This document shows, piece by piece, positions 14,924 to 52,030 of a stretch of 64,000 nucleotides of DNA. The translations under genes and the position numbers were made by a program. Under the pieces are notes generated by a model. That model was not told the origin of the DNA. It searched no databases and saw only the letters and a program-made list of their open reading frames with translations. Each line of letters begins with the position of its first letter. The first letter of the stretch is position 1. The stretch lies in NCBI RefSeq assembly GCF_002854065.1, contig NZ_CP024147.1; one strand, written 5' to 3'. Source of the DNA: Escherichia coli (GTDB lineage Bacteria > Pseudomonadota > Gammaproteobacteria > Enterobacterales > Enterobacteriaceae).

Positions 14924-15736
14924 TCAGCACTCAACAAACTGATGCTGTTCATTAAGACGATAGCGGACTCCGGCTCGAATATTGTTTTCACCTTCAATGG
15001 CGACGGCGAAACGAACTCTTTCGCCGTCATGATATGCCAGTGCGGCGCTTCCTCCTGGCCCGAGAATAATTGAGTCGACCACGCCCGTGCTCACTACCGT
15101 TGAATTTTCACCGCTGGCAATGATGTGTACATTGTCGCCGCTGTTGACAATTTTGGCGTTTGCGCCAAAGCTGGCGATTTGCACCAGGTCACCATTACTG
15201 GCGACATGACATCGTTCACCCAATGTACAAACGCGTACTCGCATTCCGGTATTCGCAATCCGACTGCTATCTCCAGCGCTGCTTATCCGCGAAGAATTGC
15301 CGGTTACAGCAACCCGTGCGCGCTCACCGGAGCTGCCAATGTGACTGTTAAAGCCGACACTTCCAATCCGCACGCTATAACCCATACTGGCAATTTGTAC
15401 AGCATACCCAGCGGTTGCGATTCTGGCGTTATCCTCACAACAGCCGATGCGAGCATGATCGTCGCTGCGGGCAAACTGACTGCAAAATGCTCTCTCTCCG
15501 GGATCTGTGGCCAGTTTTTGCATAGAGGAAACTTCCTGATGCGCGAAGTTTTCATCCGCCAGCCATTTTTTCCACGCATACTCAACAAGACTCTCCGCCC
15601 AGTCCGTATATCCTTCCTCAATCAGTGCATGATGAATATCAGCATAACTACCGCCGCGCGGGAAATGGCGCAGGAACCAGCGATACATCACCGCTCCGAT
15701 ACGCCATTCTCGCAGGTCTGCTCGTGTAATGATCAT
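14924..15736 (-). CDS. ydhT: Nonapeptide-repeat protein, last gene of the ydhYVWXUT operon
   Basis: 270-aa ORF; residues about 102-218 are at least 13 tandem 9-residue units (YAVQIASMG, YSVRIGSVG, FNSHIGSSG, ...). Confidence 0.8.
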   Translation of the reverse strand: MIITRADLREWRIGAVMYRWFLRHFPRGGSYADIHHALIEEGYTDWAESLVEYAWKKWLADENFAHQEVSSMQKLATDPGERAFCSQFARSDDHARIGCCEDNARIATAGYAVQIASMGYSVRIGSVGFNSHIGSSGERARVAVTGNSSRISSAGDSSRIANTGMRVRVCTLGERCHVASNGDLVQIASFGANAKIVNSGDNVHIIASGENSTVVSTGVVDSIILGPGGSAALAYHDGERVRFAVAIEGENNIRAGVRYRLNEQHQFVEC

Positions 15737-15739
15737 TCG

Positions 15740-16525
15740 TTAGTGCCGGTGATAGCCATCGACCATGCTTTTAAAGGTTTCGTGTGGCGTACGCCCCGTG
15801 GTGCAAAGATAAAGATGACCGAAGATAAAAAAGAGGCTTATAAATGCCAGAGCAAAATGCGCCTGCAATAACCAGTATCTTACGCCAGGAAACACATCTC
15901 CCACGGCTTGCGGATAGAGACACAGCAGCCCCGTCAATAGTAACAACGGCAGCAATCCATACATGACACCAACATAGGCAACCTGCTGTAAGGGATTAAA
16001 TTTAGACTGGGTTGTTGCCGGGAAAGGATGTTCTTCCCCCTGCATAATGCCAAACAAATAAAATCGCGTTTGTTTTGCCGCCCGCTCCAGCCAACCCTGA
16101 CGACGAATGCGATAGTGGTGGCCATTACCCCCAACGGCATTGATCAGAACAAAGCCGTGCCAGCATGCCAGTAACAAAAATCCGCAAACTTCATGCACCG
16201 CAACCAGACTTTTAACCGCAGTTGCGCCCACCAGCGCAAAGTGATTTATCAGCCCACTTGCCAGCAACAATACAAAGAGTAACGCATTCGACCAGTGCCA
16301 TAATCTGACCGCTTTGCTGTAAAGATAAATCTTCTCACCATGATCGGTGGCTGATTTCTTCACGCCACGAGCACGAAGCAAGGCGTGCAGCCCCAGCACC
16401 AACCACATCCCAACCAGCAATACTCCGGCAATGATCAACCACACCGGCCAAAATTCGGGAGTGAACTGTGGCACATAGTTCGCTAACTGGCTCTGAAACT
16501 GTTCAGCATGTTGCGACGGGTTCAT
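15740..16525 (-). CDS. ydhU: PhsC/NrfD-like integral membrane cytochrome b-type subunit
   Basis: 261-aa polytopic ORF with conserved His in helices; 4-nt overlap with ydhX. Confidence 0.8.
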   Translation of the reverse strand: MNPSQHAEQFQSQLANYVPQFTPEFWPVWLIIAGVLLVGMWLVLGLHALLRARGVKKSATDHGEKIYLYSKAVRLWHWSNALLFVLLLASGLINHFALVGATAVKSLVAVHEVCGFLLLACWHGFVLINAVGGNGHHYRIRRQGWLERAAKQTRFYLFGIMQGEEHPFPATTQSKFNPLQQVAYVGVMYGLLPLLLLTGLLCLYPQAVGDVFPGVRYWLLQAHFALAFISLFFIFGHLYLCTTGRTPHETFKSMVDGYHRH

Positions 16526-17190
16526 ACATTTTCCTTTTTAATCAAATGTTGACCGAACCGGCGATACAGATGCGGTTTCCCGGCACCAGGTAGCTGATAT
16601 TGATAGTATTTATTATCCTGCAACCACACCTGAATTTCTGGGCTATCTTCGCGACCAAAGATCAATGCGTGTTCCGGGCAGGCGCTGACGCAAATGGGCG
16701 GAAAGCCTTTTGCCAGTCGGGACTCAGCGCAGAAATCACATTTATCTGCCACTTTAGTGACAGGGTTAAGGTAGCGAACCTGGTACGGACAAGCGCCAAT
16801 GCAATAACTGCAGCCGATGCACTGCGATTTTTCTACCCGCACGATCCCCTGCTCATCACGCCACGACGCCCCTGTCGGGCATACGTCGATGCACGGAGCA
16901 TCTTCGCAGTGCTGACATGACTGGCGAAAAAAGTGATACTGCGTTTCGTTGTCGTTATCGGTGACTGGAATGTGTGCTATCGATAAACGGCTTCCCTGAG
17001 CGGGGACGTGGTTAGTTTTACGGCATGCGCGGGCGCAAATATTACAGCCATTGCACCGTGACTCGTCATGAATCATGGCATACCGAACTTCCTTTTCTTG
17101 CCTCGTGTTCGCTAACAGAGAAGACGCAGAACCAGTAAAAAAGATTACTGTTCCCATCCCCAGAACAAATTTGCGTCGAGTGAAGGACAT
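16522..17190 (-). CDS. ydhX: Tat-exported 4Fe-4S ferredoxin-like subunit
   Basis: 222 aa from the internal Met (MSFTRRKFVLGMGTVIFFTGSASSLLA, twin-arginine signal); multiple CxxCxxCxxxCP clusters. The ORF-track start at 17241 is an unsupported extension. Confidence 0.8.
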   Translation of the reverse strand: MSFTRRKFVLGMGTVIFFTGSASSLLANTRQEKEVRYAMIHDESRCNGCNICARACRKTNHVPAQGSRLSIAHIPVTDNDNETQYHFFRQSCQHCEDAPCIDVCPTGASWRDEQGIVRVEKSQCIGCSYCIGACPYQVRYLNPVTKVADKCDFCAESRLAKGFPPICVSACPEHALIFGREDSPEIQVWLQDNKYYQYQLPGAGKPHLYRRFGQHLIKKENV

Positions 17191-17253
17191 CTGATTATCC
17201 CCTAATGCAGTGGCTGCAACTGTCCACCCTATCCATGACATCTCCCTGAAATT

Positions 17254-17901
17254 TCAGGGGTTCTGAAACTGCTCTACCTCGAACCATTCGCATAAGCCAT
17301 AAGCCTTGCCATAGGTCATAAATCGCTCGCTAAACAAGTACAACACCGCCGTCGATGACTCCACCTGCCGTATATCGGCATATTCAGGTGCAACATCCAT
17401 CGCGGCGATCGCGGCTTCAATCTGCGCTTCCTGGAAGTAATATGGCGCTTGCATCAGCATGGCGACTTTGTAAGGACGAGGATACGTCTGGCACTCAAAA
17501 CGAACGGCGTGTGCAATGGCGCGACAAATGTCCTGCTCCACAACTTGCAAAGACATCGCCGCGTAGTTTTCACTCATGGCCTGCGTTGAGTAATAGTAAT
17601 CATCCTGACTTCCCGTCATACAAGCGATATCCGCGTAGTCTCCGTTCTGCTTAATGCTTTCCAGCAAAACTGACAGTTCCTCTTCTGCAACTGAATAGGG
17701 TGGCGAGAGAAACACGGCGCGCGCCACCAGCTGCCCAGCCACAGAATGCTGGCGAATGAACTCTGCCAGGATTTCAGCCGGTTCTGGTTCGGTTACCGTA
17801 TCAACGGGGTGACGCATCCCCTGCAACCATTGCCGCTTCGCCTCGTCAACTTCGCTGACTTTCGCTAACGGCAATTCATCCTGATGGTTCATCTTACCCA
17901 T
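17254..17901 (-). CDS. ydhW: Operon protein of unknown function (possible maturation/chaperone factor)
   Basis: 215-aa ORF between ydhX and ydhV on the same strand. Confidence 0.75.
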   Translation of the reverse strand: MGKMNHQDELPLAKVSEVDEAKRQWLQGMRHPVDTVTEPEPAEILAEFIRQHSVAGQLVARAVFLSPPYSVAEEELSVLLESIKQNGDYADIACMTGSQDDYYYSTQAMSENYAAMSLQVVEQDICRAIAHAVRFECQTYPRPYKVAMLMQAPYYFQEAQIEAAIAAMDVAPEYADIRQVESSTAVLYLFSERFMTYGKAYGLCEWFEVEQFQNP

Positions 17902-17904
17902 TCC

Positions 17905-20091
<2,187 letters not shown>

Positions 20092-20504
20092 TCACCGCAT
20101 AACACACATTTCGAGGATTTTTTACTTTCGGTATTTACGGTGGCCATCATCCACGGGCATGCCGTAGTACAGGCGCTACAGCCAATACAACGTTTATGAT
20201 CGACGGTAATACAGCCTTCTTTCTGCTGCCAGGTAATCGCACCAATCGGGCAGACGTTCATGCATTGCGGCTCTTTGCATTGACGGCAGGTGTCCGCGGT
20301 ATAGTTGAGATCGCCATACAGGCCGCCGCCAGAGCCAACCCCGTTGTCGCCAAAGAAATAATTGCGATGGATTTTGATACGGGAGAAGAATGTCCCTACT
20401 GAGCCATCGTTGAAGTTGGTACAAGAGATTTCACAGCGGTGGCAACCCGTGCATCGCGCTCGCTGGGTCACCAGCTCCCCTTTGGGTGTATTTATCAACC
20501 CTAC

Positions 20505-20512
20505 TGTGCCGC
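20505..20512. repeat. IS1 target-site duplication, left copy (TGTGCCGC)
   Basis: Identical 8-mer immediately flanks both IS1 ends (20505-20512 and 21281-21288). Confidence 0.85.
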
Positions 20513-20567
20513 GGTGATGCTGCCAACTTACTGATTTAGTGTATGATGGTGTTTTTGAGGTGCTCCA

Positions 20568-20843
20568 GTGGCTTCTGTTTCTATCAGCTGTCCCTCCTGT
20601 TCAGCTACTGACGGGGTGGTGCGTAACGGCAAAAGCACTGCCGGACATCAGCGCTATCTCTGCTCTCACTGCCGTAAAACATGGCAACTGCAGTTCACTT
20701 ACACCGCTTCTCAACCCGGTACGCACCAGAAAATCATTGATATGGCCATGAATGGCGTTGGATGCCGGGCAACCGCCCGCATTATGGGCGTTGGCCTCAA
20801 CACGATTTTCCGCCATTTAAAAAACTCAGGCCGCAGTCGGTAA
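20568..20843 (+). CDS. insA: IS1 InsA (transposition repressor / N-terminal part of InsAB' transposase)
   Basis: 91-aa [46 protein letters not shown]... with zinc-finger-like Cys pairs. Confidence 0.95.
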
Positions 20844-21265
20844 CCTCGCGCATACAGCCGGGCAGTGACGTCATCGTCTGCGCGGAAATGGACGAACAGT
20901 GGGGATACGTCGGGGCTAAATCGCGCCAGCGCTGGCTGTTTTACGCGTATGACAGGCTCCGGAAGACGGTTGTTGCGCACGTATTCGGTGAACGCACTAT
21001 GGCGACGCTGGGGCGTCTTATGAGCCTGCTGTCACCCTTTGACGTGGTGATATGGATGACGGATGGCTGGCCGCTGTATGAATCCCGCCTGAAGGGAAAG
21101 CTGCACGTAATCAGCAAGCGATATACGCAGCGAATTGAGCGGCATAACCTGAATCTGAGGCAGCACCTGGCACGGCTGGGACGGAAGTCGCTGTCGTTCT
21201 CAAAATCGGTGGAGCTGCATGACAAAGTCATCGGGCATTATCTGAACATAAAACACTATCAATAA
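20762..21265 (+). CDS. insB: IS1 InsB (catalytic part of InsAB' transposase, made by -1 frameshift)
   Basis: 167-aa [19 protein letters not shown]...HYLNIKHYQ in the -1 frame relative to insA. Confidence 0.95.
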
Positions 21266-21280
21266 GTTGGAGTCATTACC

Positions 21281-21288
21281 TGTGCCGC
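21281..21288. repeat. IS1 target-site duplication, right copy (TGTGCCGC)
   Basis: Matches 20505-20512 exactly. Confidence 0.85.
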
Positions 21289-21631
21289 TATCAATATCTT
21301 CCTGTTTGCAACCCAAAAGTGACAGTAACGCAGGGGCAATTGTTAGACCAGCAAGGCCTTTTCCTGATATACGCAAGAATTCTAATCGCGTTAAGCCAAT
21401 ATCTAATAGTGGACGATCAACCGGGTTCATTTATTTCGCATCCTCTTCGCAAACACAGTGCTGACAATTCAGCAGCCTGATATTAAGCATTCAACTAATA
21501 CGCTGCTGACTCTGTCCTCAACACCAGATATTTTCCCTAACCCGATAGTGTATGAGAAAAGATTTAACGCCGATAAACTAATCCTTTATGGTTAGGAGAA
21601 AAAATAATGTGGTTATTCTGGGCTCTTAACA

Positions 21632-21645
21632 TTGATCATTATCAA
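21632..21645. promoter_or_regulatory. Consensus FNR site upstream of ydhY
   Basis: TTGATCATTATCAA is a perfect match to TTGAT-N4-ATCAA, in the AT-rich region about 200 bp upstream of the ydhY start. Confidence 0.6.
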
Positions 21646-21885
21646 TTAAAATTACAAAGCAAGAAATTATAAGTGAACTGATATTTATTATCATTTGAAA
21701 TGAATTTAACTTAAGCGACAATTATTTGTGACGGTCATTGCAGAAAATAAAAATAATATTATCGTTATAAATTAAAACACATATCGAAATTCGTATAATT
21801 TCAGCAGTTGTTATTTAGAATGATTAACTGGACCGCAACTGAAGCAAGAATATCAGGATGAAGCTTATCGCCTCATCCTGAATGG

Positions 21886-51262: not shown

Positions 51263-51317
51263 GGTGATGCTGCCAACTTACTGATTTAGTGTATGATGGT
51301 GTTTTTGAGGTGCTCCA

Positions 51318-51593
51318 GTGGCTTCTGTTTCTATCAGCTGTCCCTCCTGTTCAGCTACTGACGGGGTGGTGCGTAACGGCAAAAGCACTGCCGGACATCA
51401 GCGCTATCTCTGCTCTCACTGCCGTAAAACATGGCAACTGCAGTTCACTTACACCGCTTCTCAACCCGGTACGCACCAGAAAATCATTGATATGGCCATG
51501 AATGGCGTTGGATGCCGGGCAACCGCCCGCATTATGGGCGTTGGCCTCAACACGATTTTCCGCCATTTAAAAAACTCAGGCCGCAGTCGGTAA
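51318..51593 (+). CDS. insA: IS1 InsA
   Basis: 91-aa ORF identical to the copy A InsA. Confidence 0.95.
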
Positions 51594-52015
51594 CCTCGCG
51601 CATACAGCCGGGCAGTGACGTCATCGTCTGCGCGGAAATGGACGAACAGTGGGGATACGTCGGGGCTAAATCGCGCCAGCGCTGGCTGTTTTACGCGTAT
51701 GACAGGCTCCGGAAGACGGTTGTTGCGCACGTATTCGGTGAACGCACTATGGCGACGCTGGGGCGTCTTATGAGCCTGCTGTCACCCTTTGACGTGGTGA
51801 TATGGATGACGGATGGCTGGCCGCTGTATGAATCCCGCCTGAAGGGAAAGCTGCACGTAATCAGCAAGCGATATACGCAGCGAATTGAGCGGCATAACCT
51901 GAATCTGAGGCAGCACCTGGCACGGCTGGGACGGAAGTCGCTGTCGTTCTCAAAATCGGTGGAGCTGCATGACAAAGTCATCGGGCATTATCTGAACATA
52001 AAACACTATCAATAA
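51512..52015 (+). CDS. insB: IS1 InsB
   Basis: 167-aa ORF identical to the copy A InsB. Confidence 0.95.
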
Positions 52016-52030
52016 GTTGGAGTCATTACC

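What the first reader, a model, noticed from the sequence alone, without database searches (positions are those of the whole stretch)
14924..21645. ydhYVWXUT: a poorly characterised respiratory-type oxidoreductase module, probably silenced here
The cluster has the parts of a periplasm-facing redox complex: a tungsten/molybdenum-pterin aldehyde:ferredoxin oxidoreductase homologue (YdhV), two poly-ferredoxins (YdhY, and YdhX with a twin-arginine signal), a PhsC/NrfD-like membrane subunit (YdhU), and YdhW and YdhT of unknown role, with a perfect FNR site upstream. Its substrate is not established as far as I know. The genes are tightly packed (3-nt gaps, one 4-nt overlap), consistent with one transcript.
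Basis: partly seen in the sequence, partly recalled or inferred. Interest (0 to 1): 0.5.

Follow-up and report, generated by a model that had tools for sequence, protein, structure and literature searches.

The report
Known ydhYVWXUT operon broken by IS1
This is the already described E. coli ydhYVWXUT operon, which encodes a membrane-linked molybdenum enzyme whose substrate is still unknown; in this strain a recent IS1 insertion has split its first gene, so the copy is ordinary and probably dead.

Summary
Window 14924-21645 (minus strand) is the E. coli ydhYVWXUT operon. Five genes (ydhV, W, X, U, T) are intact, each 1-5 residues from K-12. A perfect FNR box sits at 21632-21645. ydhY is split after codon 50 by a 768-bp IS1 (20513-21280) with an 8-bp target duplication. 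E. coli CUWW06 carries the same DNA without the IS1 (3 differences in 9.7 kb), so the insertion is recent and strain-specific.

- YdhU is a PhsC/FdnI-type cytochrome b, not NrfD-like.
- YdhV is published as a bis-Mo-MPT enzyme with a Cys ligand, close to benzoyl-CoA reductase BamB. A relative oxidised none of 46 aldehydes.
- FNR control is already published.

Everything central is known, and the substrate is still unknown in a June 2026 paper.

Small additions from 84 loci:
- YdhY-YdhV-YdhW is the conserved core.
- YdhW models as two tandem winged-helix domains, so it is a candidate chaperone.
- Enterobacterial YdhY always has RL or RQ where relatives have the twin arginine (44 versus 38 loci), exactly where YdhX/YdhU are present.

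Verdict: already known, low interest.

The parts
21632..21645 (.). FNR box TTGAT-N4-ATCAA, centre 21638.5
   Evidence: Only perfect match in the window, 0.16 expected. Half-sites are conserved in K-12 and Citrobacter. Published as a class II FNR site at -42.5 (PMC3688515).
21604..21609 (-). -10-like hexamer CATTAT; the inferred transcription start is near 21596
   Evidence: Position inferred from the FNR centre minus 42.5. The block is conserved in K-12 and Citrobacter. Not measured here.
21579..21594 (.). Candidate NarL/NarP 7-2-7 site (TAACCATAAAGGATTA on the minus strand), about +2 to +17
   Evidence: Two mismatches to TACYYMT-N2-AKRRGTA. It lies in the best-conserved block of the leader. 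The pattern is not enriched window-wide (27 found, 31 expected), so this is a lead only. It fits the NarL/NarP regulation named in the title of Partridge 2008.
21431..21596 (-). 5' leader of about 166 nt
   Evidence: No Rfam family matches. Folding z-score is -1.8, not significant.
21281..21430 (-). ydhY 5' fragment: codons 1-50, covering the signal-like region up to just past Cys41
   Evidence: It reads into IS1 and would give a 76-aa product that stops at 21200-21202.
20513..21280 (+). IS1, 768 bp, with terminal inverted repeats, insA, an A6C frameshift site and insB; transcribed opposite to the operon
   Evidence: Identical to the second IS1 copy at 51263-52030.
20505..20512 (.). Target-site duplication TGTGCCGC; the second copy is at 21281-21288
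   Evidence: K-12 and CUWW06 carry a single copy at the empty site.
20028..20512 (-). ydhY 3' fragment: the ferredoxin domain with four CxxCxxCxxxC motifs, now lacking promoter, start codon and signal
17905..20007 (-). ydhV, 700 aa, catalytic subunit of the AOR/WOR family; intact
   Evidence: Pfam AFOR_N 1.6e-67 and AFOR_C 1e-47. CxxCxxxC at 307-314 aligns with the cluster cysteines of P. furiosus AOR. Cys336 and D372xxG375 are invariant in 7 relatives. One residue differs from K-12.
17254..17901 (-). ydhW, 215 aa, acidic cytoplasmic protein; intact
   Evidence: NCBIfam YdhW equivalog. AF2 model at pLDDT 92 shows two tandem winged-helix domains. pI 4.5. Found next to ydhV relatives in 82 of 84 loci.
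16522..17190 (-). ydhX, 222 aa, NrfC-like ferredoxin with four [4Fe-4S] motifs and a TRRKF twin-arginine signal; intact
15740..16525 (-). ydhU, 261 aa, PhsC-type b cytochrome with 5 hydrophobic segments; intact
   Evidence: Pfam PF01292 at 1.5e-30. NCBIfam PhsC equivalog at 457 bits. Histidines invariant across 45 homologues include H77, H95, H111, H223 and H237, which lie in or beside the hydrophobic segments.
14924..15736 (-). ydhT, 270 aa; intact; role unknown
   Evidence: NCBIfam YdhT equivalog. AF2 model at pLDDT 85 shows an N-terminal helical domain plus a beta-solenoid built of 9-residue repeats. Only generic beta-helix fold matches. Found only in Enterobacterales.

Best explanation
The region is the E. 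coli ydhYVWXUT operon, a known FNR-activated operon for a quinone-linked molybdopterin oxidoreductase of unknown substrate. In this strain a recent IS1 insertion has knocked it out.

Shown:
- Gene identities and the integrity of ydhV, W, X, U and T.
- The FNR box.
- IS1 at codon 50 of ydhY with an 8-bp duplication.
- An otherwise near-identical strain has the empty site.

Inferred working of the intact system:
- YdhV (Mo-bis-MPT plus one [4Fe-4S]) pairs with YdhY (four [4Fe-4S], signal-like N-terminus ending in a conserved Gly-Cys).
- The pair is matured in the cytoplasm, probably escorted by YdhW.
- It is exported folded by Tat to the outer face of the inner membrane.
- There it is wired through YdhX (Tat-exported, four [4Fe-4S]) to YdhU, a PhsC-type b cytochrome that exchanges electrons with menaquinol.
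- By analogy with thiosulfate reductase PhsABC, and given the BamB-like Cys-ligated active site, the likelier direction is reduction of a low-potential periplasmic acceptor.

Inferred effect of the lesion:
- The IS1 separates the YdhY signal region from its ferredoxin domain.
- It leaves about 1.2 kb of untranslated RNA before ydhV.
- YdhY is therefore lost, and transcription of ydhVWXUT from the FNR promoter should be strongly reduced by polarity.
For: Identity:
- The DNA matches the ydh locus in E. coli genomes. 5409 of 5426 complete genomes cover at least 80% of the 5.6-kb operon body.
- NCBIfam equivalogs are hit for all six proteins, with Pfam support.

Lesion:
- IS1 boundaries, duplication and exact restoration of YdhY on excision.
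- CUWW06 differs at 3 of 9724 positions once the IS1 is removed, and has an intact ydhY.
- The truncated product is 76 aa, followed by 1192 untranslated nt before the ydhV ATG.

Regulation:
- A unique perfect FNR box.
- Published FNR site at -42.5 with ChIP and expression support (PMC3688515).

Cofactor:
- YdhV binds redox-active bis-Mo-MPT (PMC9103625, PMC13328260).
- It has a Cys336 ligand and is close to BamB (PMC12096430). The cysteine is invariant here.

Topology and wiring:
- TRRKF signal on YdhX.
- YdhY homologues elsewhere carry (S/T)RRxFL and sit beside TatA genes.
- The YdhY n-region is positively charged and the stretch after Cys41 is acidic.
- YdhU belongs to PF01292 and has invariant histidines in or beside its hydrophobic segments.

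YdhW as a core partner:
- Present in 82 of 84 loci.
- No signal peptide and pI 4.5.
- No Moco chaperone for YdhV is known (PMC9103625).
Against: - No expression data exist for this strain. IS1 polarity is textbook knowledge, not measured here, and low read-through or an internal promoter cannot be excluded.
- Enterobacterial YdhY has RL, not RR, in its signal-like motif, so its own Tat competence is doubtful and the export route is open.
- The direction of electron flow is not fixed by regulation: hydrogenase 2 is also anaerobically induced.
- The chaperone role of YdhW rests on synteny and fold only. Its fold is not that of the TorD/DmsD chaperones.
- YdhT has no assignable role.
- Purified YdhV has never shown activity (PMC9103625).
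Confidence: 0.85

Rival explanations
1. Transmembrane-conduit model. In Enterobacterales the YdhV-YdhY dimer stays on the cytoplasmic face, held by the uncleaved N-terminal segment of YdhY. Periplasmic YdhX and the b cytochrome YdhU carry electrons across the membrane, as in DsrMKJOP-type complexes. The substrate would then be cytoplasmic.
For: - YdhY lacks the twin arginine in all 44 loci that carry YdhX/YdhU (43 RL, 1 RQ). All 38 motif-bearing YdhY homologues elsewhere keep RR.
- YdhX also scores as DsrO-like, 137 bits.
- The YdhY N-terminal region is unusually well conserved for a signal peptide.
Against: - The charge distribution (positive n-region, acidic stretch after Cys41) predicts N-in/C-out, which puts the ferredoxin domain outside.
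- The hydrophobic core is only about 15 residues.
- A periplasmic YdhX with no catalytic partner of its own would be odd.
- The RL/RR split may reflect a single evolutionary event, because the loci with YdhX/YdhU form essentially one clade.
- Published predictions place the E. coli complex in the periplasm (PMC4257093, PMC13328260).
Confidence: 0.15
2. The operon is not silenced. ydhVWXUT are still transcribed by read-through or from a promoter in or near IS1, and YdhV works without YdhY.
For: - The five downstream genes carry no lesions.
- IS elements sometimes create outward promoters (general knowledge).
- YdhV alone can be made and loaded with cofactor when over-expressed (PMC9103625).
Against: - YdhY is the conserved small subunit next to YdhV in nearly every locus: 82 of 84, and one of the two exceptions (L024) holds only 543 bases upstream of the ydhV match.
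- No promoter-like site on the operon strand was found between the IS1 and ydhV.
- 1.2 kb of untranslated RNA invites Rho termination.
- The intact downstream genes are explained by the recency of the insertion.
Confidence: 0.08
3. As the database name says, YdhV is an aldehyde:ferredoxin oxidoreductase, and the complex oxidises periplasmic aldehydes to reduce quinone.
For: - Strong AFOR_N and AFOR_C domain matches.
- The best solved relatives by sequence are aldehyde and formaldehyde oxidoreductases.
Against: - The YdhV clade has a Cys metal ligand and lacks the second-shell residues conserved in aldehyde-oxidising members (PMC12096430).
- The clade-41 enzyme of Cetobacterium somerae oxidised none of 46 aldehydes (PMC13328260).
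- No activity has been found for YdhV (PMC9103625). Both preparations lacked partner subunits, so this evidence is not decisive.
Confidence: 0.1

Closest known systems
E. coli K-12 ydhYVWXUT (b1674-b1669)
   Same: Same six genes, order, lengths, spacing and FNR box. Each of the five intact proteins differs from K-12 by 1-5 residues, and the restored YdhY by one.
   Different: ydhY is split by IS1 in the window. There is also a one-base difference in the FNR spacer and a 1-nt indel in the leader.
Class V WOR / clade 41, e.g. Cetobacterium somerae CsWOR41 L-S-W with FdhD and Tat genes downstream (PMC13328260)
   Same: The same core trio of ferredoxin, YdhV-like and YdhW-like genes. Cetobacterium loci L063-L066 appear in my set.
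   Different: No YdhX, YdhU or YdhT. The small subunit keeps a canonical RR signal. FdhD and TatA are in the cluster. The metal preference is W rather than Mo (PMC13328260).
Thiosulfate reductase PhsABC (Salmonella)
   Same: YdhU is named as the PhsC cytochrome b equivalog. The layout is the same: catalytic pterin subunit, four-cluster ferredoxin and b-type cytochrome.
   Different: The catalytic subunit is an AOR-family bis-MPT enzyme, not a bis-MGD DMSO-reductase-family enzyme. There are two ferredoxins in series instead of one. YdhX is closer to NrfC (248 bits) than to any PhsB model.
[quoted passage not shown]
   Same: AOR family, with a Cys ligand to the metal and no aldehyde-type second shell (PMC12096430). 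Sequence match 3e-44.
   Different: BamB is cytoplasmic, W-dependent and part of a soluble electron-bifurcating complex. Only the N-terminal domain aligns confidently by sequence.
IS1 polar insertions (the classical gal and lac cases)
   Same: A 768-bp IS1 with an 8-9-bp target duplication inside the first gene of an operon.
   Different: Nothing unusual. The polarity is assumed from established knowledge, not measured here.

Membership tests
E. coli ydhYVWXUT operon | Six genes in the order Y-V-W-X-U-T, each matching its equivalog | tested here: met
   NCBIfam equivalogs above cut-off for all six. Synteny with K-12.
E. coli ydhYVWXUT operon | Class II FNR site upstream of ydhY | tested here: met
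   Perfect TTGAT-N4-ATCAA at 21632-21645, aligned with the K-12 site. FNR dependence itself is taken from PMC3688515, not tested here.
E. coli ydhYVWXUT operon | All six reading frames intact | tested here: not met
   ydhY is split by IS1; the other five are intact. It is a member, but a disrupted allele.
AOR/WOR family (YdhV) | AFOR_N plus AFOR_C domains | tested here: met
   1.6e-67 and 1e-47.
AOR/WOR family (YdhV) | CxxCxxxC...C ligands of the [4Fe-4S] cluster | tested here: met
   C307, C310 and C314 align with the cluster cysteines of P. furiosus AOR. The fourth ligand is presumed to be the invariant C558; that assignment is inferred.
AOR/WOR family (YdhV) | Binds a bis-pterin metal cofactor | not testable with these tools
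   Shown for K-12 YdhV, which differs by one residue (D523N), in Reschke 2019 as reported in PMC9103625. The DxxGL motif at 372-376 is present.
YdhV/BamB subclade | Cysteine ligand to the metal (Cys336) | tested here: met
   N334-T335-C336 is invariant in 7 relatives down to 49% identity. Its role as a ligand is taken from PMC12096430.
Aldehyde-oxidising AORs (sensu stricto) | Conserved second-shell residues and aldehyde oxidation activity | not tested
   The C-terminal domain aligned too poorly to solved AORs to score these residues. The literature says they are absent, and a clade member oxidised none of 46 aldehydes (PMC12096430, PMC13328260).
PhsC / FdnI / HyaC b-type cytochromes (YdhU) | PF01292 domain with conserved histidines in the membrane helices | tested here: met
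   PF01292 at 1.5e-30. Five hydrophobic segments; invariant H77, H95, H111, H223 and H237 lie in or beside them. Haem binding itself was not tested.
   No NrfD hit in Pfam or NCBIfam.
Tat substrates (YdhX) | (S/T)RRxFLK motif followed by a hydrophobic stretch | tested here: met
   MSFTRRKFVLGMGTVIFF, conserved in Citrobacter, Limnobaculum and L016.
Tat substrates (YdhY) | Twin arginine in the motif | tested here: not met
   TRLEFLR here. RL or RQ in 44 of 44 loci with YdhX/YdhU, against RR in 38 of 38 elsewhere. Export may still occur by hitch-hiking.
IS1 | 768 bp, about 23-bp imperfect terminal inverted repeats, insA-insB with an A6C frameshift site, 8-9-bp target duplication | tested here: met
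TorD/DmsD-type redox enzyme maturation proteins (YdhW) | All-helical TorD-like fold | tested here: not met

The most novel reading that the evidence does not exclude
When Enterobacterales added the YdhX/YdhU quinol module to the ancestral YdhY-YdhV-YdhW enzyme, YdhY lost its twin arginine (RR to RL) but kept a strongly conserved signal-like segment ending in Gly-Cys. Either the whole YdhV-YdhY-YdhX unit is now exported on YdhX's single Tat signal, with the YdhY N-terminus acting only as an anchor, or the catalytic dimer was moved to the cytoplasmic face. In both cases YdhW, a tandem winged-helix protein, would be a new fold of dedicated escort or chaperone. Its omission would explain why every purified YdhV-type enzyme so far has been inactive.
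Probability: 0.3. Interest if true: 0.45.

Novelty: already known. Interest (0 to 1): 0.2.

Why it matters
As submitted, the finding re-describes a published operon. [quoted passage not shown] The finding adds one strain-specific IS1 knockout, which matters only as an example of ongoing gene loss.

The real open question is what this enzyme does. It is carried by nearly every E. coli, and its WOR clade is reported as the most abundant in the human gut microbiome (PMC13328260). The window does not make that question more testable.

The comparative by-products give modest, concrete guidance for whoever next tries to purify an active holoenzyme. These are YdhW as a constant partner, FdhD in the clusters that lack the membrane module, and the RL-versus-RR split in YdhY.

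Tried and rejected
- Pfam-A on YdhT and YdhW gave nothing significant. The newer families PF27195 and PF27264 exist only as precomputed labels.
- Sequence and profile searches of YdhW and YdhT against the PDB gave no hits.
- The Rfam scan of the operon and leader found no family. The leader fold is not significant.
- The profile-to-PDB alignment of YdhV covered the N-terminal domain and the cluster motif, but not enough of the C-terminal domain to score second-shell residues.
- The NarL 7-2-7 pattern is not enriched in the window. Only one conserved, well-placed site is worth noting.
The YdhV alignment was used instead.
- Partridge 2008 is not held in the library. A literature search for IS1 polarity gave nothing directly usable.
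- I first suspected a Shigella origin from the IS1 load. I dropped this because E. coli CUWW06 is near-identical.

Full report
**What is there**

The six long minus-strand ORFs between 14924 and 21430 match the ydh locus in 5,424 of 5,426 complete E. coli genomes. In 5,409 of them a single place covers at least 80% of the 5.6-kb operon body. Against K-12 MG1655, ydhT, ydhU, ydhX, ydhW and ydhV have identical lengths, no internal stops and 1-5 amino-acid differences each. All six products hit their NCBIfam equivalogs above the curated cut-offs.

Gene spacing:

| Junction | Spacing |
|---|---|
| ydhY-ydhV | 20 nt |
| ydhV-ydhW | 3 nt |
| ydhW-ydhX | 63 nt |
| ydhX-ydhU | 4-nt overlap |
| ydhU-ydhT | 3 nt |

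The FNR box TTGATcattATCAA at 21632-21645 is the only perfect match in the 64 kb, with 0.16 expected by chance. It aligns with the K-12 and Citrobacter sites. Its centre is 208.5 nt upstream of the ydhY ATG at 21430. With the published position of -42.5 (PMC3688515), the start falls near 21596 and the leader is about 166 nt.

**The lesion**

ydhY is interrupted after codon 50 by a complete 768-bp IS1 at 20513-21280. Its insA and insB lie on the plus strand, opposite to the operon. It is flanked by the 8-bp direct repeat TGTGCCGC. Deleting the IS1 and one repeat restores a 208-aa YdhY with one residue different from K-12.

E. coli CUWW06 has the same region without the IS1. After in-silico excision it shows 3 differences in 9,724 bp, and its ydhY is annotated intact. 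The insertion is therefore recent and, within that collection, private to the window's strain.

STEC388 has an IS1 one base away, with a 9-bp duplication and 11 sequence differences in the element. That is an independent hit in the same orientation. Other strains carry:
- IS1 in ydhV;
- IS1 in the ydhY-fumD spacer;
- IS1-bounded deletions of the locus.

About 19 of 5,426 genomes have an IS1 in or next to ydhY. Loss is recurrent but rare.

**Consequence (inferred)**

The 5' fragment would give a 76-residue peptide: the YdhY signal-like segment plus 26 IS1-encoded residues, stopping at 21200-21202. About 1.19 kb of untranslated RNA follows before the ydhV start. IS1 insertions are classically polar in either orientation (established knowledge, not tested here). 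No promoter-like site on the operon strand lies between the IS1 and ydhV. Even with read-through, the small subunit that accompanies YdhV in nearly every locus examined is gone.

**What the intact system is**

- *YdhV.* It carries AFOR_N and AFOR_C domains. Its CxxCxxxC motif (307-314) aligns with the cluster cysteines of P. furiosus AOR. Cys336 and D372xxG375 are invariant. The literature shows that it binds a redox-active bis-Mo-MPT cofactor, prefers Mo to W, and has never shown activity when purified alone (PMC9103625, PMC13328260). Cys336 ligates the metal, and the clade sits next to BamB and lacks the aldehyde-type second shell (PMC12096430).
- *YdhY and YdhX.* Each has four CxxCxxCxxxC motifs. 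YdhX is most like NrfC and has a canonical TRRKF signal.
- *YdhU.* It is a PF01292 cytochrome b, named as the PhsC equivalog. It has five hydrophobic segments and invariant histidines in or beside them. It is not NrfD-like.
- *YdhW.* It has no significant Pfam-A match. A pLDDT-92 model shows a disordered acidic tail and two tandem winged-helix domains, pI 4.5.
- *YdhT.* It models as a helical domain plus a beta-solenoid of 9-residue repeats. It has only generic fold matches and a narrow distribution.

**Comparative genomics**

I analysed 84 loci: 80 from species-representative genomes that encode YdhV relatives, three metagenomic loci, and the repaired window.

| Feature | Y-V-W-X-U-(T) layout (45 loci) | Other loci (39) |
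|---|---|---|
| Taxa | Enterobacterales, plus one Telmatospirillum MAG that lacks ydhT | Firmicutes, Cetobacterium and others |
| YdhX, YdhU, YdhT | X and U in 45; T in 43 | none |
| FdhD | 0 | 20 |
| TatA | 0 | 29 |
| YdhW | 45 | 37 |

The second layout matches the three-gene CsWOR41 operon with FdhD and Tat genes described in PMC13328260. YdhW therefore accompanies YdhV in 82 of 84 loci.

The signal motif of YdhY is (S/T)RRxFL in all 38 motif-bearing homologues outside the enterobacterial layout. It is RL (43) or RQ (1), never RR, in all 44 where YdhX and YdhU are present. All 44 keep a Gly-Cys after the hydrophobic stretch. The enterobacterial group is essentially one clade, so this may be a single event rather than a statistical association. 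I did not find this RL/RR split mentioned in the papers I read.

**Mechanism**

My best reading is a periplasm-facing, menaquinone-linked enzyme. YdhV and YdhY are matured in the cytoplasm, with YdhW as the likely escort, and exported folded by Tat. In Enterobacterales they may ride on YdhX's signal. They are then wired through YdhX to the YdhU haems.

The PhsC-type cytochrome and the BamB-like active site favour reduction of a low-potential acceptor, but the direction is not established.

The main rival keeps YdhV-YdhY on the cytoplasmic face, with YdhX and YdhU as a transmembrane wire. The charge distribution around the YdhY hydrophobic segment argues against it.

The 'aldehyde oxidoreductase' label is poorly supported. 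A clade member oxidised none of 46 aldehydes (PMC13328260).

**Verdict**

The locus is already known, and the only window-specific feature is an ordinary, recent IS1 knockout. Interest is low. The by-products on YdhW and the RL motif are modest leads.

Noticed in passing
window 51263-52030: A second IS1, identical in sequence and orientation to the one in ydhY, splits fadK (medium-chain acyl-CoA ligase). It has a 9-bp duplication GAAGCTGGC. A few E. coli genomes have an IS1 at or near this site.
   Followed up: partly
window 21679-21695 (minus strand): AATGATAATAAATATCA resembles a Fur box and is conserved in Citrobacter. It overlaps a good sigma-70-like promoter on the operon strand, ATGATA-17-TATAAT at 21694-21666, upstream of the FNR box. 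This fits the published Fur ChIP peak and Fur regulation of ydhYVWXUT in CFT073 (PMC7157518).
   Followed up: partly
window 21431-21596 and L014 3760-4085: The leader of about 166 nt has blocks nearly identical between E. coli and Citrobacter, for example CCTAACCaTAAAGGATTAGTTTA and TTGTCAGCAC. No Rfam family matches and there is no significant fold. One block is a candidate NarL/NarP 7-2-7 site.
   Followed up: partly
ydhY in L021-L062, L064 and L088 versus L008-L012, L063 and L065-L100: YdhY has RL or RQ in place of the twin arginine in all 44 loci that also encode YdhX and YdhU, and RR in all 38 motif-bearing homologues elsewhere. The Gly-Cys after the hydrophobic stretch is kept in all 44.
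   Followed up: yes
E. coli loci L001, L004, L018, L019, L020: The ydhY-ydhV region is hit repeatedly and independently by IS1 in different strains: one base from the window's site, in ydhV, in the promoter spacer, and as IS1-bounded deletions.
   Followed up: partly
window 15125-15871 (+ strand): A 248-codon ORF runs antisense to ydhT. It lies opposite the region that encodes the 9-residue repeats, so it is most likely a by-product of the repeats rather than a gene.
   Followed up: no
window 21853-21881 (minus strand): A strong terminator-like hairpin (12 pairs, then a T-rich tail) lies just downstream of fumD. It would insulate the ydhY promoter from fumD read-through.
   Followed up: no
L012 9614-10768; L010 6026-6802; 20 of 39 loci without YdhX/YdhU: An FdhD-type sulfurtransferase gene follows the YdhW-like gene in many loci. 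This hints that the YdhV-type cofactor needs a sulfido ligand. E. coli has fdhD elsewhere on the chromosome. The same point is made for Cetobacterium in PMC13328260.
   Followed up: partly
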